Shown piece by piece: positions 1-56,641 of a DNA stretch of 64,000 bases. The stretch spans positions 1,860,001 through 1,924,000 of the forward strand of contig JAYWIR010000009.1 in assembly GCA_036172245.1 (NCBI GenBank), read 5' to 3'. The number at the start of each line of letters is the position of its first letter. Within the stretch, counting starts at the first letter, position 1. The DNA is from Raillietiella orientalis. Taxonomy: Eukaryota. A program made the position numbers and the translations under genes. The notes below the pieces were generated by a model. That model saw only the letters and a list, made by a program, of their open reading frames with translations, was not told the DNA's origin and searched no databases.

Positions 1-960
1 GTTCACCCCCAGGTCCGTCCCACGGCTGGGCAACTCGAAGAAATCCTCGAGAGCGGAAGGGACGTGGGTGGAACTGGGGCCGCAGCAGCAGAAGATCGTC
101 TGCGCAGACCGACACGGCGGGAGTGGCGGGACACGAGCTCGGCAGGGCTGCCAGAGCCTCCCTGCATGCTCTCAGCACCAATTCAAAATGAATGCTGAAG
201 AGCAGGGGCTGAGGCTGTCCTCCGGCCTCATGCCACGCCGAAGCGGCACGCCGTGCACGTGCCGGCCGCTGAAATTGATATTAGTAAACGCGAAGCGCCA
301 GCAGGAGCGCAGATAGGCCAGGAAGACTGTCGGAAATCCCATGCGTTCGAGGAGCTCCGGAAGGATTTCCTGGTCGACTCAGTCGGAAGCTTTGCGCAAA
401 TCGACTGCGACTGCGTGGTCGACCTCTTCTCCCCCTTGGCCTTCCCCCACCCCCCGGTCAGAGGAGAATGCAGGGTTCTCATGACGCAGCTGCACCTCGC
501 GTCCTTCCCCAGTTCCAAAGCCGCGCTTTCGGCTTTTGCATCCCCCCCTTCCTCCTCCTCCCCTAGCGAGTTTTAAAAATGGCATCACTTCCTGGATTTT
601 GCCGTGGCAGATTACAGGGGACACTGGAGATTCGATTTCGCGGTCCGACGTCAGCTGTGTGACTGCATGGAAACGGCTCCATCCATCAGGGTGGGAACAT
701 CTCCGTCTTCCGGGGGCGGGAAGGAAGAGGGGGATGCGAGGGCGCGCCGAATGCCTCTGGCCCACGTGCCAATTGTTCACGAATCAGCGGATGGGGTAAC
801 GAGATCAACAGAGGAGCATGGGGCCAGCTTCCTGTATCCTGCGAGGCAGGATTCTCCATCTGGGGGGGGGGGGGGAAGGATCTCCGACGATCGCGCGCCT
901 CCCCAGCGGAACAGAGAGCTCGAGTGCTTCCGTTTCGAGAGCGACGCAAAAGACTGCACG
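1..960 (-). mobile_element. Degenerate non-LTR retrotransposon reverse transcriptase (L1/Tx1-like ORF2 relic), running off the window start
   Basis: Manual minus-strand translation with stops and frameshifts gives RT motifs in order: PPPDG..YRKLAP (~SPGPDG..FYK), AVAVDLRKASD*VDQEILPELLERMGFP (~LDFEKAFDRVDH..L..MGFP), VPLRRGMRPEDSLSP/LLFSI (~RGVRQGCPLSPLLF), VCADDLLL (~YADD). Confidence 0.8.
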
Positions 961-1459
961 CCCGTCTTCCTGGAGCAGCTTCAACTTCTTCCGTTGCCTG
1001 CTCGCAGACGAACACGGGGAAGTTCCAGAAGAGAAACCGCGTTGCCGCGAGGCGTTCCCGTTACTTTGCAGGAGCGCAGATCGTCTGACGTTCCCTCTTC
1101 TCACGTGTCTTCCAACGGATCGACCGATTCCGTGGGGCCTTAATGGAAGGATCGCTCCCGAACGAAGAGATGCTGTGGGGACCCCACGTCTCGATTCCGA
1201 GAGCTCTCCCGACCCCTCTCCTCCCGTCGCCGCTTCGGAGCCTTGAAACTCGCTCAGCGAAGGGTGTCCCTTGCGTGTCGCGGACGGCGAACACGTGGGT
1301 TGCACAGCCGTTTCGTCATCCAGTAGGGAAGAGAAGGGATGCCTTCGGATGCTCCTCCGGTGCGCCCGAGCCGGGAACACCGCCCTGCGAGCGCAACACG
1401 GAGGTGCGAAAGCACCCGCAGAACGGCACTCGAGGTTTCACCAGGTCAGCTGACTGACG

Positions 1460-2256
1460 CTGCCACCCCGAGTACGCCTCCCCATGGACTTCTGCGCTGG
1501 GGCGCGCTGCTCGACGTTCCCATTGAACGTCTGAAGTGGCCCCCGGTGCTCATGAACACTTCCGCCCTTCCCTTAAAATGGCAGGAGTCGGCTCTCCTGT
1601 TGCAGCACTGGGGACTCCCCTGCAACGCCCGCCGACACCACTGGACCTGGGGAGCGGTGGACCCTAATTGTGTTAGGTGTGGGGAACGGGAGTCCCTCCC
1701 CCACCTGCTTGTGGATTGTGTTGCCCTCCGGCCCCTTTGGTTCCGCTTTGCCGCGGCCATCGGAATCCCCTGCGGCAACCCCAGGGACGCTCTGAAAGCC
1801 CTCTTCGTTGCCGACGCCCTTCGGCCAGCGGCCTCGTTAGCAGCCCTGTGCTGCCTACGCGGGATCGTCGCCGCCTGGAGCAAGGCTACGGGAGGACCAC
1901 ACGACCAGGGTGCCATCCAGCCAGCCTCCCTGTTCCTGAGGTGGGCTTCGCGATGGCCCCACCTGGATCCAAGCATGCAGCAAGAGCTTGCCGGCATCCT
2001 GAGAAGGATGCAACGGCCCCACCAGCTACAGTGACCCTTCCCGTACCCTCCAACTTTTTCTTTTCTTTTTGTTTTGTTTTTTTTTTGTTTTTCCCCCTTC
2101 CCCCTGCTGCCGTGGTGGACCGTACCGGTCTGCGAGCCGGTGACCCGGCGGGCTCTGTGTTTCTTCGTGCGTGGCTGGAGCATTGGTCCAGCCACTGCAC
2201 GTCTTTCTTAAAGTTTATTGTTTGAATAAACGCCCCGGCGAAATCCGGGTGAAAAT
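1460..2256 (+). mobile_element. 5'-truncated L1/Tx1-like LINE 3' end (zf-RVT C-terminus plus 3' UTR)
   Basis: An intact frame to TGA 2034 contains LQHWGLPCNARRHHW..NCVRCGERESLPHLLVDC..LRPLW (CxxC...HxxxxC knuckle of L1/Tx1 ORF2). It is followed by a pyrimidine tract, hairpins and AATAAA at 2225-2230. Confidence 0.8.
2090..2256 (+). other. Structured LINE 3'-UTR motif (3-4 hairpins), copy 1
   Basis: Stems ACCGG 2124-2128/CCGGT 2137-2141, GTGGCTGGA 2171-2179/TCCAGCCAC 2187-2195 and CCCGG 2234-2238/CCGGG 2245-2249. The same order recurs at 50990-51160. Confidence 0.65.
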
Positions 2257-4710
2257 CGAGGTTTCACCACTTTGGACGCGACTTCGGATTCGGAAGGGTC
2301 GCCTGGCAACCCTTCGAAGCCCCCCGTGTGCTTCTCGTTCCTCGTAACGACAGAGGCTTGCAGCGTTTCTCTTCCCCCCCCCCCCCCCCAAAAAAAAGAA
2401 AAATGGCGGTACTCAAACGCGGACAGCTTGTGCAAAATGCATCTTGCTTTCGTACCAAAAAAAAAAAAAAAACAGCTTATCGATCTGCAATGTGTACGTT
2501 CTCTGATATGTTAATGCTACTTGAAAAACAAACGTTACAACAACGTGAGCCGAAATGCACCGACTTCAGACAAAACAAGAAGGATGACGTCTGTGCGCCG
2601 CATGCCGTTCTCAAGAGAAGGGAGGGGAGGGGAAAAAAAAAAGAAAAAAAGAGCGATGGCTGCCAACAAGAACGCGTGACCCGACCTAACCTTTCGTGTC
2701 CTCGCAAGCGAACATTTCCCTCGGACGCAGTCATCAACGACAAAACGACCATCTTCCCGTTCGACTGGACCGCCGCAAGTCCGACTCCTGCTGGAATCCG
2801 CTCATCGGATCGTTCCAGCGTGCTCCCTCCTCGCATACCACCCTAATCAAATTAGCACGCCTGCACGCGTGCGTGCGTTCGCGGCACGGTGGGGCCGGGA
2901 CATCCGAGCAGTTTATGCGAAGGATCATCCCTGAGGTCTCCCTGTTCCCGGGGAATGCACTCCGAGACAAACGACTCGCGGAATTCGCGTCGGAAGGAAA
3001 TTCCCATTCGTTCAAATACTTCGTTTTGTTTCTCCCTTTTCTTCTTCTTCTTCTTTTCTCTCTCTCCCCGTTTTTCCCAGAACAGATTAGCAGCGTAAGG
3101 AGCGACGCATTTCGTTCCCTGTACCTGTTTGTAGCAAAACGAATGCCACTCCCTTCATTCTATTAATATGCGTTTTTCAACCCATACCTATTTATAACGA
3201 CCCAACTGACAGCGGAAGCCGATAGCGCCGGCACAATGTCGACGGCTCGCGTTCGATCCCCGGGAACGGCAGCGCGAGTCTCCTGCAGAAGGGGTGCTGA
3301 GCGTTTCCGGGAACCGACGATGCGAGCCCGCCCGTTTGCGAGCGCAGTCGGGAACCGGAAGCGAATTCCCGCTCCCGAACGCCGCCACCCTCCGCTCTGC
3401 TCCGGGAACCCCTCGGCGCTGACTCGGAAACCGGGTCGGCTCGATTGTTGCGCCCCCGGTCGCGTGACCTGCACCTCTTTTTTTTTCTTCTTTTTTTGCG
3501 TTCTTCTCTTTCTCCCTATCCCTGGGGCCTCAGGAATGCCATCTGTTCTCTTCGGCAGGTCCAATGTGTTTCAGCAGCAGCGTTCGAAACTGCTTCTTGA
3601 CCTTGCGGACTCTTCGGTTGCCACCGTCGTTCGCGTCCCAACGAGGCTGCTGCTGCTGCTGCTGCATGCGCGCGCCATCCGATCATCTGAAGCTCTTGAG
3701 CTGAGCGAGCACGATGGGCCAATAAACATTCGTGTTCCCACGGAACGGTGACATTCGATGGGATGGGCAGAGGTGGGGGCAAGCGACCACGCTTTTGAGC
3801 GTTTCGACACGGGGAGCGGGGGAAAAAAATCTCGTCGGTAACTCACGAGGAATGAAAACTGCACGCGTGAGTGGCTGCAGGCTGATCAGCATCCCGCGAG
3901 GACCGCAATCCGCGCGTCTTCTGAGACGAGCGGCGGACGAATGCGAAACGCGCAGAAGACAGCACAACAACAACATCGAATGTGACCTCGCGGATACCCA
4001 CGGAAGAAGGGGGGGGGGGGGGGGAGGAAGAGTGTGTGACGCGAACGCGTAGGGACTAGAATCCGTAGGGACGTTTTCAGGGATGTGTTTGTGTGCTCCC
4101 CTGATACACACAGCAGCACGCATGCATTAGAATTCTTGGGCAAAGAATTTCCCGGGACTCCGTTCCTCCTAGCGCCCTGGTATGGGGGGGGGGCTAAACA
4201 AGCCGCACAGATTCTGCAGATTTCCGGGGTTTCCTTCTTAGCAAAGGGCAAATAAAATTCACGGAGGGAGGGAGGAAAGGAAAAGAAAAGCCGATGTTCG
4301 CCTTGGAAATTTTTCCGTGGGCCCGGGGCTGCACATCCTCGCGCCTTTCCGAACCGATGGCGCTGTTCGCGAGGGTCCGTCGGCCGTTCGAGCGGTCGCG
4401 GTTTCAGCAGCTGCATTCAACCCGGAGAATTGCACATGTTCCTGTCGCCGGGCAACCGACTCTCCTTGCAGCATCTTTCGAAACGAGCAACGGATCCGAC
4501 GTCCTCATCCGCCTCAACAGAACCGCTCGCGACGCGTGCCGGAGGTGAGATGACGCCGCCTCCGGAGCCTTCCAGTTGAGTCCCGTCCGAGGACGGAGAC
4601 GCTCGTGCGCCTATGCTCCCCGTTACGAGCGCCGCCGTGCCTGTCGAAGGCACCGCTCCTACTTCCGCGCCCTACTGAGTAGCGCCTGTCACGCCCTCGA
4701 ACGAGAGACC

Positions 4711-37984: not shown

Positions 37985-39009
37985 CCCTAGAAGGAGGGTA
38001 ACGTGGCGTCACACGGCAACGAAAATGAGCTCTGCCACGGTCCGTGTTGCGAGCGTGCCGTTTTAGCCACCTGCCACGAGGTCTTCCGTGTTGCGGGCGT
38101 GCCGTTTTAGCCACCCACCTGCCACGAGGCCTTCCGTGTTGCGAGCGTGCCGTTTTAGCCACCCACCTGCCACGAGGCCTTCCGTGTTGCGGGCGTGCCG
38201 TTTTAGCCACCCACCTGCCACGAGGCCTTCCGTATTGCGGGCGTGCCGTTTTAGCCACCCACCTGCCACGAGGCCTTCCGTGTGCCTGCAACCGCAATGG
38301 CGTGCACATCGGGCGGTTTTGTTTCATTCCGTGCCCGATCGTGTCGTACACGGCACGTTACGTGTCCAAATGTGCACCCGTGGCTGCTCGTGTCCGAATT
38401 TCCACGCAAAATGAACGGGAAGGGTTGATTGGAAGGGGAAACGAATTGAGAAGAGTTGTCGCCTGATGGAGACGGAAATTCGGAAGCAGAGAGCGTACGA
38501 GACGCTGATGAAAGTGATGTGGACGGCCTTTGAGAGCTTTTTATGGAATGTTCGACGTTCGTTGCCTTGGAAATCCAAGTTATGCAGTCGTTTCCGGAAA
38601 AGTGTTTCTTTCCAATTGAGGATACGAGCTCGTAACACCCCACGTGGAGCGCTGGTTGCGATGCAAAAATTTGTCTCGTTCTGTGCGAGATGCGATGCTA
38701 TGCGTACGAAATAAAGATGTTCCTCAAGATGTTCCTCAAGGTGTTCCGCAGGAAGCTTTCTCCGTGCGTAAGCGCTGCGAAATGTGCCCACGTTCCAGTC
38801 AACCGGAAAGGAAGAGAAAAGCGTAGCTGTTGCAAACAGGCGGCCAACAGCTTTATGCTGCGAATGTGCAAAGAACTCATCAAACCATTTGTCAAGAGAA
38901 TTGTCGTTCATGGACAAAATGAAAAATTGTTAAATCTTTATAGAATGTCAATCGGTGTCCTTTATGGCACCACATTTGTGCACGGCATCGTCGCGTGGCC
39001 CTTCTAGGG
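37985..39009 (+). mobile_element. Non-autonomous (internally deleted) piggyBac element, 1025 bp
   Basis: Perfect 10-bp TIR CCCTAGAAGG (37985-37994)/CCTTCTAGGG (39000-39009), flanked by CTAA and TTCA (each one change from the TTAA target). A frameshifted cysteine-rich-domain remnant RKRCEMCPRS...MCKE/HQTICQENC lies at about 38767-38904. Confidence 0.8.
38032..38283. repeat. 48-bp minisatellite, about 5.3 copies, inside the piggyBac element
   Basis: Unit GCCGTTTTAGCCACCCACCTGCCACGAGGCCTTCCGTGTTGCG(A/G)GCGT repeated head-to-tail with few substitutions; the first full unit lacks 4 nt. Confidence 0.95.
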
Positions 39010-50559: not shown

Positions 50560-51160
50560 CATTTACCAGGGGATGTCTTGTCTTCCAGCACGAAAGGCAG
50601 TGCACGAGCTCCGTGAGTTGGCTGGAGTCTACACTGATATCCAAACAGTGGGTGACCTCTGTTTGGCCGAGAAATGTTAAGCGAGCTACAAAAACTAATC
50701 AGTTTTACAGAATCCTTTCGTATGCAAAGAAGTACTCTTTAACGCCCAGAAAAGCAGAGCACGAACGACAAACTGGCAAGGTGGAACGCTAAGAGAAGAG
50801 GCCAAAAAAGCAGGGACGCCATCCACTGGACGACGATCTTTTTGGAGACCGTGACAAGGTGGCCCCATGGAAATGATATTAAAACAGCACTTGTCAGCAT
50901 CCATAACAGGGTGCAGAGGACCAATCCTGGCGTGCAGTGATCCATCCCATTTCCTCCCCTTTTCAATTCTTTTCGTTTTGTTGCTCCTTTCCCCTTCGCC
51001 GTTGGGGGGAACCTCACCGGTCTTAGTACCGGTTGATGACAGGTCTTCGAGCGTGGTAGAACTAAGTGTTCTACCACGGTATAAACATTATTATAGACTT
51101 TATTATAAGATTTTTGTATAAAAATTTTAATCATAATTGTCCCGGTAAATCCGGGTGATA
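50560..51160 (+). mobile_element. LINE 3' end related to the 1460-2256 copy
   Basis: 50761-50940 encodes KLARWNAKRRGQKSRDAIHWTTIFLETVTRWPH...RVQRTNPGVQ*, colinear with IVAAWSKATGGPHDQGAIQPASLFLRWASRWPH...RMQRPHQLQ* of copy 1. The same 3'-UTR hairpin series follows. Confidence 0.7.
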
Positions 51161-51449
51161 AACGAATGACAAACTCAACATGTCAGGAATGGCATGGGAC
51201 TTTGGACTACGTACGGAAAGGGGAATGAGGCGAAAAAAACTAACAAAGCTCTTTCTGCAATGCATATGGGAGCTGTGACGCAAATGAACAAGATCATACA
51301 ATCAAAGTATACGAAAACAACCTAGGGTGCATAGCAGCTGCGAATGATTTCGTGTTCCTATTAAGGAACAAGCAAGATCAAGGGTTTCGAAAATCAATGG
51401 AAAAAAGGAGTCAGAGGTTTGGACTGTGAATCGACCTGGGAAAACCCAA

Positions 51450-52899: not shown

Positions 52900-54500
52900 C
52901 GACTTTCGAGCGATCTTCCATTATATCGATCAGCAAGTTCCTCCTCAAGATTCTGGAAGTGTCCGATCTGCTAGACAGTCTCCTTACCTATCTTTGCTTC
53001 AGTGCAGAGCAATAACATCCATCTTTTTAAGAAGGGTGCCCACGCAATACGTCCAATGGAAACGCGAATCAGGTAGGGAGATGGCCCGAGTCCCATATTC
53101 TTCAGCATCTTTTTTCGAATTTTTTCCATTGGTGTTAGTCTGTCCTCTAAACTGTCTCCCGTCTTATTTCCCTTGCAATGGGGCAGAGGCCTAAGCCGGT
53201 GTCTATTTCTTTTCATCCAAGGACACTGACGCGACCTTGGACGAACCGTTCTTCCAGTTAATCTCCCGGGCAGAGGACATGGACATCAATCGAAAGTGCA
53301 CCGATGGGAGCGTTGTAGGATGGGCAGCCGGAAGGAATCTGCCCCCGTACCTTCGTAGTCAGTACGTTCAAGTATCTCGAAATGTTCATGAGAGCTCTCT
53401 CCGCGAGCTCCTCGTATAAGCCTGGTCCAGCTGCTTTCAAAAGGCAAATTACCCGGTTGCTACGGGTATTTTGTGGCAGTTTTTTGCTTACAGCATGAAA
53501 GTACACATTCTCCGTAGAAACTGTCTTCAACCGGGTTATGGAGGTAGGGAATGACCTGCATTCAGTCCACTCACAGAGACAGAGATTCGATGTCATCAAG
53601 CAATAGTAATCTAAATACAAAATAAATAATTAATAATGGGGATAAGAGTTTGGAGTCAGCAGGGTCCAGCCTGATTTCCGCAGAGATTCTGGGTAATGTG
53701 GACAATTTTCTTTTTCATTGTTTCTTCCATTTGTGGCCATTTCGACGCTTACAACAGCGGAAACTGTGTTCAAGAATTGTCTTCACATCAGTGATAAAAT
53801 TTTCCTTGCAGTCGTACAATCACAATGTTGCAGATGTGGCCCCATGATACTGGCAGGGTGGAACCCTACTCCTCTTTAGCAGGTCTTCAAGAGAGGTGTG
53901 TAGTCGCGGCAGGTTCTTGCTGGACGCCTTCAACTTGCAAGAAGGGAACTAAATTCCAGCAACTCATGAAGAGTTGATCCCTCCATTCTACACACGGTTC
54001 CAGACTAAAGATGCTGCTGCTTATTGCATGGGAAACTCCAGTGCAAGAAGAGCACCGATAAACGTTGTGGACTTGATGGAGCACAGAAATGTCTGTGCAC
54101 ATACATACTGTACGACACACAGCGTCTCCTCGGCCTTTCGAAAACAGTATAACCAACCAAGGCCAGATCTGCACAAAGAATAGATTAGTCCCCACGCTTC
54201 CGTCTGGAACAGCACAATTCTGCTCAATGCTGACCAAGGATTCTTCTACCCTTTCAAAGAGTCCATTCAACAGCCTCCGGAGCAGCTTGAGGTATGAGTT
54301 CACTAGAGTGTCGTGCACAGACTGCCCAGATTGCAGGTGACATGAAACTTTGGCTGAGCGGAAGGAAGAGAGAATTTGGCCTGTTTCTTCAAACAGTAGA
54401 ATCAGCTTCTGCATCTGGAGACCTCGCTCCGCTGCGAAGTAACGGATGAGTTTCAATGACTGTCACAACTTCTCCTGATGCCTTTTACCTCTTAAAAGTT
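52900..54500 (-). mobile_element. Degenerate L1/Tx1 RT region (probably extends toward about 56 kb)
   Basis: TLVNSYLKLLRRLL..LVSIEQNCAVPDGSVGTNL (~LLN.DYKIL...LI..DQ.C.VPGRSI..NL), VPFLQVEGVQQ (~GVRQG), WKNGSSKVASVSL...GLGL. Confidence 0.7.
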
Positions 54501-56641
54501 CCTCTGGAGGCGGTAATTTCAGCCACTGAAAACGGTTTGCCAAGGCGTGCATGTTCCTGCTGCTTGATAAAGGAAGCGTCCTTCTATTGCCATTGATGGG
54601 AGCTCTCTCCAGAGACGCCCTTGCATATAAGGAGGAGTAAAAGCCGCACATGAAAATTCACACTACGGCCGAGAGAGGACACCCCTGCTGTCGTTCGTCC
54701 AGCGGTCAAGCTTCCCAGAATCGCAGACCTGCCTTTTGGCTTTGCTCTTTCTGAGCAATCTCAAAAGGCGGCAGATTGCTTTCTCATCAAACCCGATCGG
54801 TTCAGAGCCTTCAAGTTCTGAACTGATGCCCACATAAGGTCATGCATGTGTCGTCCACGCAACGGTTATCTAGGATCCCACTTTTGAATCTGACGACGGA
54901 GGGTGCGAGGCAAGTCCTTTTTCGCTTGGCTACACCTCCGTTGCCAAAATCGTGCGTCTGCCCGACCAAGGCTTTGGATTAGGCAACTTCACTCTGCGCT
55001 GCACCATTCAGTTTTCGTACTCTCCTCCATCCACTTCTTCCATCTTGGCGGGGTCATGGCAAGAGGCACATTATTGGGGGAGAACCTTCGACGATAGGTT
55101 TGCGCCCACCTGATCACCATTTTCTAGGTGGAGATCTTTGCCAAGAGTCGCGGGTACTCACTTGTTTTCCGAGGAGTAACCCTTAGCGGATCCTCTCCAT
55201 CCCGCGATTCCGTCTTACACGTGGAGTTTGGATGGCTGGCTTAGGAGATGCGGCTCTCTTGTACCCAGCTGGCCGCAACCCCGATGATTTTATAGAAATT
55301 CACCTGTGTTCGAGATGACCTGTCGCTCCTTACTAGTCACATGTTTCTCGCTTCCTGACAATCGATTGGTCGATGATGCTCCCAGAGTTTGTGGAAAGGC
55401 TCCCTTTACGACCACTGTTACTCGCTACTGTAGCCCGCTTGCTATACACTTAGATGCTGTACACACACATCGTGTGTGTACAGCAATCTGCGCCAGAGCA
55501 CGTGAGCGGCGACAGTTTTTCAGAACTGCCATGGTCTGCTGGTCTATCATCTTGGGCTCAATTCCACTCAGGTAGACCATGAATGTGGTCCTCTAGCACG
55601 GGGAAAACTTTCCGTCTGCGTATGCTCAGGATTCATCGTAAACACTCATGAGAGCTGTGTCCTTGCTCAAGAGCTCGTAAGCAGTACTCCTGCTGAACAT
55701 TTATTAGACTAGAGGAGTCCTTCCTGCCCACCAAATCTTTAAAGCTTGTTAATGAGCCGGAAAAAAACATCCGTTCAAGCGAGATGATTTACTCTGTAGC
55801 GAAGTAAGGCCTATACTCTTGAGTTATCGATACCTACATCTCTGCACTGCCCAGAGGACCACCGTTGGTCGCTGCTGCCGAAGAGAAACTTATGTGCACG
55901 CTTGGGAGAAAGGGCAGGGGGTCAAATGACCTCGGCATTTCTCCTTGAGGCATCCTCGCTCTAACAGTGGGAAACTCCTTGCTTCATCAACATCCATTGT
56001 GAGAGACAGCAACTTTACAAGGCTGGCCTCACCTAGCCGTTATCATGTTGGCTGTACGATTACCGCACACAAGAATACGCAGGGGGACGTTGCCGAGGGC
56101 AACACATCACTCCATTAAACACTTCATGATCAAAGCTGTGACAGCGAGATAGGGATACAAATGGATGCCAACAGGGATCGAACGGCAAGCCACCTCTGTG
56201 CCCTTCATCCGTAACTACAGGAACAGACCGTTTCGGACGTTAAGGATGAGGCTCCATGGAATAAGAACAAAGAGTAAGCGATGTGGCAGTTGCCGTTTTC
56301 CTCGCCCATACATCACCGTCTCGTTTTCTCCTTAATTCATTTCACACTATTCAAACAGATACTCTCAAACTTAAGACAACGGCAAAAAGGACCGACAGTC
56401 AGTGAACTTATGTTATAAAAAACATTATTATTAAGACAGGAGTCAAGCAATCAGAAATATATTCATACAATTATCATAGATAATAATGCATTTGTAAACC
56501 GGAAGTGACAATAGGGAAAATATGTATTATCACTGTAAACTACCACTAGCACTTGAGAACTGCCATGATGCCCAATTTTCTAAACATCCTTCAGCGAATC
56601 CAATAAAATAAATAGCTTGCTTAGGTTATGAAATAGATTTT

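What the first reader, a model, noticed from the sequence alone, without database searches (positions are those of the whole stretch)
2030..2256. Multi-hairpin LINE 3'-UTR RNA motif conserved by covariation (copy 1)
Seen: two LINE ends with diverged protein tails (here and 50938-51160) share the same post-stop layout: CAGTGA, pyrimidine tract, GCCGT-loop hairpin, ACCGG/CCGGT hairpin, TCTTCG, GTGG..CCAC hairpin, AT-rich linker, then CCCGG-(N)AAAT-CCGGGTGA hairpin. The middle stem changes sequence but keeps pairing: GTGGCTGGA/TCCAGCCAC versus GTGGTAGAAC/GTTCTACCAC. Established: some LINE clades (L2, SART1) recognise their own 3' stem-loops, whereas mammalian L1 relies on poly(A). Inference: an undescribed cis-acting RNA structure of an L1/Tx1-like family whose copies here show no obvious poly(A) tail, possibly for RT recognition or 3'-end processing.
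Basis: partly seen in the sequence, partly recalled or inferred. Interest (0 to 1): 0.7.

Follow-up and report, generated by a model that had tools for sequence, protein, structure and literature searches.

The report
Structured tail-less ends of L1-like LINEs
Many diverged jumping-gene families related to human LINE-1 in this animal genome end not in a poly(A) tail but in the same set of small RNA hairpins, most likely a handle by which their own copying enzyme grips the RNA and sets where copying starts, a kind of signal already known from other jumping genes.

Summary
The motif is real. Both window copies are 5'-truncated L1-clade LINEs with 14-bp target duplications (1444-2255; 50775-51161). 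The tail is shared by many diverged LINE families in this invertebrate genome: the terminal module has 1,081 exact matches (control 0). Across family representatives, two hairpins covary under a tree-aware test: the CUGCG-loop hairpin (closing pair) and the middle stem. The terminal GC hairpin is 97% paired but invariant, so it gives no covariation evidence. Ends are precise (hairpin, TGA, N-A-A, duplication), with an A-run of at most 4 in 148 of 149 ends. Best reading (0.65, inferred, no RNA data): a stringent-type ORF2p recognition tail that fixes where reverse transcription starts. No Rfam family matches. Precedent exists in L2, R2 and SART1 tails and in a monocot L1 lineage. This scan already noted the motif, and the family's homing into other LINEs' RT genes, on other stretches of this genome. 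New variant of a known kind.

The parts
1430..1443 (+). Left target-site duplication of copy 1 (14 bp, begins TCGA)
   Evidence: exact repeat of 2256-2269
1444..2034 (+). C-terminal part of ORF2 of a 5'-truncated L1-clade LINE (zinc-binding zf-RVT region), stop at 2032-2034
   Evidence: PF13966, E 6.9e-5, below the curated cut-off; 93% identical to the ORF2 tail of near full-length copy L064
2035..2104 (+). Pyrimidine block: C-rich box after the stop, U tract 2055-2092, C run
   Evidence: same layout in most families
2105..2123 (+). Semi-conserved segment with GCCGT; no conserved pairing shown (local hairpin, long-range stem and pseudoknot all unsupported)
2124..2141 (+). Hairpin H2: 5-6 bp stem, CUGCGN hexaloop; closing pair covaries
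2171..2195 (+).
2213..2231 (+). AU helix whose 3' strand is AATAAAC (AATAAA at 2225-2230); loop hypervariable within family 1
2234..2249 (+). Terminal hairpin H4 (CCCGG / CCGGG), invariant stem, variable loop
2250..2255 (+). Terminal TGA-NAA; last base of the element; no poly(A)
2256..2269 (+). Right target-site duplication of copy 1
50761..50774 (+). Left target-site duplication of copy 2 (14 bp, one mismatch to 51162-51175)
50775..50940 (+). Decayed ORF2 tail and stop region of copy 2 (second family)
51016..51033 (+). H2 of copy 2 (loop CUUAGU)
51052..51078 (+). H3 of copy 2 (11 bp)
51141..51161 (+). H4 and terminal TGA-TAA of copy 2; its AATAAA is decayed (51132-51137)
51162..51175 (+). Right target-site duplication of copy 2

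Best explanation
The 3' UTR is a stringent-type recognition tail for the element's own ORF2 protein. Shown: APE+RT L1-clade elements carry H2, H3 and the terminal AATAAA-H4 module; H2 and H3 keep pairing while their letters change; every intact copy ends six bases after the H4 stem with no poly(A). Inferred: ORF2p binds the folded tail (fixed CUGCG loop and invariant H4 as shared determinants, H3 possibly family-specific) and holds it so that target-primed reverse transcription begins at a fixed distance from H4, whatever lies 3' of that point in the RNA. Inferred: the AATAAA 23-25 nt before the end marks Pol II 3' processing near the same point. Insertion-site choice comes mainly from the endonuclease, since family 1 also has a preferred base upstream of the nick.
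For: L1-clade identity: RVT_1 and Exo_endo_phos; best solved relative is human L1 ORF2p, E 1e-41, versus R2, E 2e-12. Motif in 111 of 124 protein-anchored tails and in 22 of 33 bystander tails not chosen by DNA query or pattern, versus 1 of 300 control stretches. H2 closing pair: UA 23, CG 15, GC 2, UG 1 of 47; rank 1 of 8,385 pairs in a sequence-only alignment. In the model-fitted alignment the top 3 of 10,583 pairs are predicted pairs, E 0.000, 0.005 and 0.008 for 26 proposed pairs. H3 native halves fold at -10.8 kcal/mol versus -6.2 for cross-family chimeras and -4.9 for shuffles. 39 of 47 duplications start 2-3 nt after TGA; A-run at most 4 in 148 of 149 ends; copies as short as 75 nt still end there. 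G at -4 of the nick in 11 of 13 family-1 sites. Precedent for stem-loop recognition by ORF2p: PMC4176376 (passages); for an L1-clade lineage: PMC3472496.
Against: No binding, transposition or RNA data. H4, the element nearest the start point, has no double change in any of 5 pairs. Only 1 of 5 H2 pairs and 2 of 10 H3 pairs pass E<0.05, and the H3 pairs do so only on the structure-fitted alignment (sequence-only: E 0.07-0.19 in 37 rows, none in all 46). H3 reaches z<=-2 in only 13 of 46 representatives. 11 of 33 bystander tails lack the terminal module within 4 mismatches (several look cut or interrupted, not all were inspected). No SINE sharing this tail turned up in the loci read; the short copies are plain truncations. 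My null model is a home-made imitation of R-scape.
Confidence: 0.65

Rival explanations
1. The module serves mainly host 3'-end processing or RNA stability: UGUA and AAUAAA recruit cleavage factors, H4 fixes the cut, and the RNA ends at N-A-A with little or no poly(A); the RT simply starts at the RNA end. Compatible with the best explanation as a second role.
For: AATAAA intact in 141 of 149 ends, 23-25 nt before the last base; TGTA within 45 nt upstream in 23 of 47 representatives versus 12 expected. The host actin gene has AATAAA in its 3' region.
Against: AATAAA sits in a helix of 5 or more Watson-Crick pairs in 28 of 43 representatives versus 14.5 expected, which could hide it. Canonical processing adds poly(A), and none is copied. 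It does not explain H2 and H3, 60-150 nt upstream.
Confidence: 0.2
2. No selected RNA structure: shared descent of GC-rich palindromes, or a DNA-level binding site.
For: H4 is invariant, and four of five H2 pairs vary too little to test. The CCGG arms are self-complementary by nature.
Against: Compensatory changes at the H2 closing pair (4 joint changes on the tree) and across H3. Spacers and linkers diverge freely while stems and the loop motif persist (mean column identity 40%).
Confidence: 0.08
3. The tail is a self-cleaving ribozyme (HDV-like, twister, pistol, hammerhead) or a tRNA-like element cut by RNase P or Z that makes the precise 3' end.
For: Precise ends without poly(A); multi-helix layout; H4 loosely resembles a tRNA T-arm (recalled resemblance, no call).
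Against: No Rfam match at gathering score in the window, and none to any ribozyme or tRNA at E<=1 in 10 loci. ARAGORN finds 0 genes in 14 loci. The pseudoknot an HDV-like fold needs is unsupported. H4 loops vary in length and sequence.
Confidence: 0.05

Closest known systems
Monocot 1a L1-clade lineage (LINE1-1_ZM, with ZmSINE2/3) and Chlamydomonas L1-1_CR (Ohshima 2012, PMC3472496)
   Same: L1-clade elements with a conserved 3' end, a hairpin with compensatory stem changes and a fixed loop motif, read as stringent recognition.
   Different: There about 45-80 nt and one hairpin, with poly(A) (stated for L1-1_CR; 224 of 233 flowering-plant L1 families) and SINE partners. Here an animal host, about 150 nt with three to four helices, no poly(A) or repeat, and no SINE seen.
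Stringent L2-clade tails (eel UnaL2, zebrafish ZfL2-1/2; PMC4176376)
   Same: Stem-loop near the 3' end that ORF2p recognises; stem read generically, loop specifically.
   Different: Different clade; those end in short tandem repeats (recalled), these in a single TGA-NAA; binding is shown there and only inferred here.
R2 3' UTR (PMC12503042, PMC13586686)
   Same: Structured 3' UTR (stem-loop or pseudoknot) bound by the protein; the RT can start without primer homology.
   Different: R2 has one ORF, a restriction-like endonuclease and a 28S target; these have ORF1 plus APE-RT ORF2 and 10-18 bp duplications.
Tx1 group of target-preferring LINEs (Tx1L in Tx1D, Tx1-Mar, Keno; PMC4494074)
   Same: Animal APE elements with family-specific target preference, including other transposons as targets.
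   Different: Clade placement was not tested by a tree with references. The passages read describe no conserved 3' structure, and the SINEU elements they mobilise have poly(A).
Human L1
   Same: Closest solved ORF2p; AATAAA near the end (recalled for L1); duplications of similar length.
   Different: Human L1 needs poly(A) (PMC12503042 passages); these copies have none.

Membership tests
L1 group LINE (L1/Tx1) | ORF2 with APE endonuclease and RT | tested here: met
   on L064 (93% identical tail to copy 1)
L1 group LINE (L1/Tx1) | C-terminal zinc-binding region and upstream ORF1 | tested here: met
   PF13966 E 6.9e-5, below cut-off; ORF1 with two CCHC-like motifs seen, no Pfam hit
L1 group LINE (L1/Tx1) | Target-site duplications and 5' truncation | tested here: met
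   47 of 149 ends with an exact repeat of 10-18 nt, sham 7 of 147
Tx1 clade specifically | RT phylogeny groups with Tx1L, Keno, Kibi | not tested
   no named reference sequences were held; homologues found are unnamed, 21-31% identical apart from one at 69%
Tx1 clade specifically | Target preference (over 20% of flanks in one sequence type, criterion in PMC4494074) | tested here: met
   12 of 35 family-1 ends by strict motif, 15 of 35 by score, lie at the RT KAF-D codons of other LINEs
Stringent-type LINE tail | Conserved 3' stem-loop with compensatory changes | tested here: met
   (H2, H3); H4 conserved without covariation
Stringent-type LINE tail | 3' UTR required for transposition and bound by ORF2p | not testable with these tools
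   needs a binding or transposition assay
Stringent-type LINE tail | Partner SINE sharing the tail | tested here: inconclusive
   none among the ends read; no genome-wide search was possible
Relaxed mammalian-type L1 | Poly(A) tail on inserted copies | tested here: not met
   A-run at most 4 in 148 of 149 ends, 6 in one
Known self-cleaving ribozymes and other Rfam families | Match to a covariance model | tested here: not met
tRNA-derived or tRNA-like tail | Cloverleaf or tRNA model match | tested here: not met

The most novel reading that the evidence does not exclude
An animal L1-clade radiation that has dropped poly(A) priming altogether. The RNA ends in a compact terminal pseudoknot: the base after AATAAA pairs with the second H4 loop base (CG 25, TA 13, AT 5, TG 3 of 56), a topology like the turnip yellow mosaic virus tRNA-like acceptor arm (recalled). 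The AAUAAA is hidden in a helix, and the transcript carries target-like letters at its ends (a near-constant 15-nt 5' leader matches the RT-gene target), so it anneals to its target in the manner of R2. That would be an APE-type LINE whose start point and landing site are partly set by its RNA.
Probability: 0.15. Interest if true: 0.75.

Novelty: new variant of a known kind. Interest (0 to 1): 0.45.

Why it matters
How L1-clade proteins moved between structure-specific and poly(A)-based RNA recognition is an open question raised in PMC3472496 and PMC4176376. This genome holds dozens of diverged L1-clade tail variants with one shared architecture, exact ends and no poly(A). That is a natural series for mapping which ORF2p residues read which hairpin and how the RT start is measured. 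It adds an animal example to a known principle and does not establish a new one.

Tried and rejected
GCCGT-loop hairpin: predicted in both window copies but no conserved register across families. Long-range stem around H2 (58% paired) and an upstream pseudoknot (64% paired): no significant pair. One search used a structure string shifted by one column and was redone. Kissing between the H2 and H4 loops: no such pair among the top covarying pairs; not tested further. Non-templated origin of the variable N in TGA-N-AA: N follows subfamily in one family (p<0.001) and shows no signal in two others (p 0.60, 0.48), so it is at least partly inherited. Metagenome scan with the terminal pattern: 4 matches, none LINE-related (no model hit). 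Sequencing runs: no RNA holder listed; one DNA contig set laid on copy 1 gave nothing decisive. Light-harvesting family search: no match. Pfam on 19 other long window ORFs: no family. Rows left out: 4 of 50 representatives before alignment A2 (one truncated, two mis-parsed, one with an internal deletion); 25 of 81 rows of A3 as redundant or partial; 7 of 50. Literature searches returned no description of this motif; the library lacks most subscription papers and Repbase reports, and the SART1 paper was not held.

Full report
Setting. The window lies in a 210-Mb genome in 491 contigs. Its actin best matches Actin-5C among solved structures, so the host is an animal, probably an invertebrate (inference). 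Copy 1 is a 5'-truncated LINE, 1444-2255, between exact 14-bp duplications at 1430-1443 and 2256-2269. Copy 2 is 50775-51161, with a 14-bp duplication carrying one mismatch. A near full-length relative of copy 1 (L064, tail 93% identical) has an ORF1 and an ORF2 with APE and RT domains, broken by a stop. Its closest solved protein is human L1 ORF2p (E 1e-41; R2 E 2e-12). Placement in Tx1 versus L1 proper was not tested.

Observation. All listed motifs are present, and both tails fold better than shuffles (z -2.75, -3.14). Family 1 has 1,840 first-look candidates, the best 40 at 89-100% identity; family 2 has 624, at 67-88% apart from the self-match. The terminal pattern AATAAA-NN-CCCCGG-N4-7-CCGGGTGA occurs 1,081 times, the reversed control 0 times. 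To avoid circularity I also collected tails by a protein profile: 111 of 124 have the module within 4 mismatches of 20, as do 22 of 33 bystander tails, against 1 of 300 random stretches. The profile was seeded from pattern-found elements, so unrelated LINE clades are invisible to it. 149 of 150 ends fell into 50 clusters at 20% distance, 17 with two or more members; some singletons are decayed copies, not families.

Structure. I aligned 46 of the 50 representatives plus the two window copies by sequence alone. H2 is 88% paired; its loop-closing pair is UA 23, CG 15, GC 2, UG 1 of 47 and ranks first of 8,385 column pairs under a tree-aware null (E about 0.1 for all pairs, below 0.01 for the proposed ones). 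With that pair left free in a genome-wide pattern (1,017 matches, control 2), my hand count of the 100 listed is 64 T-A, 31 C-G, 4 T-G and 1 C-A (these are copies, not events). H3 has double changes at all 10 pairs (73-82% paired). On the sequence-only alignment its best pairs reach only E 0.07-0.19 in 37 rows and none in all 46. On the model-fitted alignment (56 of 81 rows) the top three of 10,583 pairs are the H2 closing pair and two H3 pairs (E 0.000, 0.005, 0.008 for 26 proposed pairs); that alignment leans toward the structure. Native H3 halves fold at -10.8 kcal/mol, cross-family chimeras at -6.2, shuffles at -4.9 plus or minus 0.4, but only 13 of 46 representatives reach z<=-2 on their own. 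H4 is 97% paired with no double change. The GCCGT hairpin, a stem enclosing H2 and an upstream pseudoknot are unsupported. Two further leads: AATAAA lies in a helix of 5 or more pairs in 28 of 43 representatives (14.5 expected; lead from note e1-7591242), and the base after AATAAA covaries with the second H4 loop base (46 of 56 canonical, rank 8, E 11 for all pairs, about three joint changes by eye). The second is suggestive only.

Ends. 47 of 149 ends have an exact upstream repeat of 10-18 nt (sham 7 of 147), and 39 of these start 2-3 nt after the terminal TGA. The A-run is at most 4 in 148 of 149 ends. AATAAA is intact in 141 of 149 and lies 23-25 nt before the last base. The first letters of the duplication are family-specific (TCGA in 26 of 35 family-1 ends), and family 1 prefers G four bases upstream of the nick (11 of 13; p 1e-4), which points to endonuclease specificity.

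Mechanism. Shown: an L1-clade element, a conserved and partly covarying 3' fold, and a fixed end six bases after H4 with no poly(A). Inferred (0.65): ORF2p binds the fold and starts target-primed reverse transcription at a set distance from H4. Rivals are a mainly 3'-processing or stability role (0.2), neutral or DNA-level conservation (0.08) and self-cleavage or tRNA-like processing (0.05; no Rfam or ARAGORN hit). Whether the RNA is polyadenylated is unknown, because no RNA run was listed.

Comparison with what is known. PMC3472496 (main text read, parts 1-2 of 3; supplements searched as text, figures not seen) reports a monocot L1 lineage with a compensatory 3' hairpin, a stringent Chlamydomonas L1, and 9 plant and 5 algal L1 families with no 3' repeat. 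PMC4176376 (passages) shows ORF2p recognition of L2 stem-loops. PMC12503042 and PMC13586686 (passages) describe R2 3' UTR binding and the poly(A) dependence of human L1. PMC4494074 (passages) describes Tx1 families that target other transposons. PMC3747384 was seen as passages, and PMC5135761 as a search listing only. Seven searches found no description of this motif. It works like a stringent LINE tail; membership cannot be completed without a functional assay. Earlier notes of this scan describe the same tail on other stretches of this genome; they are not independent support.

Verdict. A real, conserved, partly covarying multi-hairpin LINE tail with precise poly(A)-less ends: a new variant of a known kind, interest 0.45.

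Noticed in passing
L064, L067, L069 and L159-L188 (family 1 elsewhere in the genome): Family 1 homes, antisense, into the RT KAF-D codons of other LINEs: 15 of 35 3' ends, and all 28 parsed of 30 intact 5' ends (22 by strict motif, 6 by eye; 21 distinct flanks; the query included the leader, which biases this). Already noted by earlier scan reports.
   Followed up: yes
L064:2466-2480 and the 5' junctions: Full-length copies begin with a near-constant 15-nt target-like leader (identical in 15 of 21 distinct sites). In the three copies seen whole it differs from the 3' duplication at 2, 2 and 3 of 15 bases, so it may be carried by the element's RNA and anneal to the target.
   Followed up: partly
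L042:1897-2082 (minus strand): A family-2 copy sits antisense inside a U2 snRNA sequence near its 3' end (Rfam RF00004, E 5.7e-14); a single case.
   Followed up: no
window 1-414 (minus) and 54163-54642 (minus): Fragments of other LINE RT genes (42% and 32% identical to L064 ORF2).
   Followed up: no
L065, L075, L057: One family group has a longer UTR holding what looks like a second, decayed upstream end module.
   Followed up: no
L017, L029, L070, L092: Head-to-tail tandem copies, and nests of LINEs inserted into each other.
   Followed up: no
window 38041-38283: Tandem repeat of about 92-96 bp period.
   Followed up: no
P0002: A metagenome-derived ORF2 fragment 69% identical to this family, so a related host has been sampled; its 3' UTR could not be fetched.
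   Followed up: no
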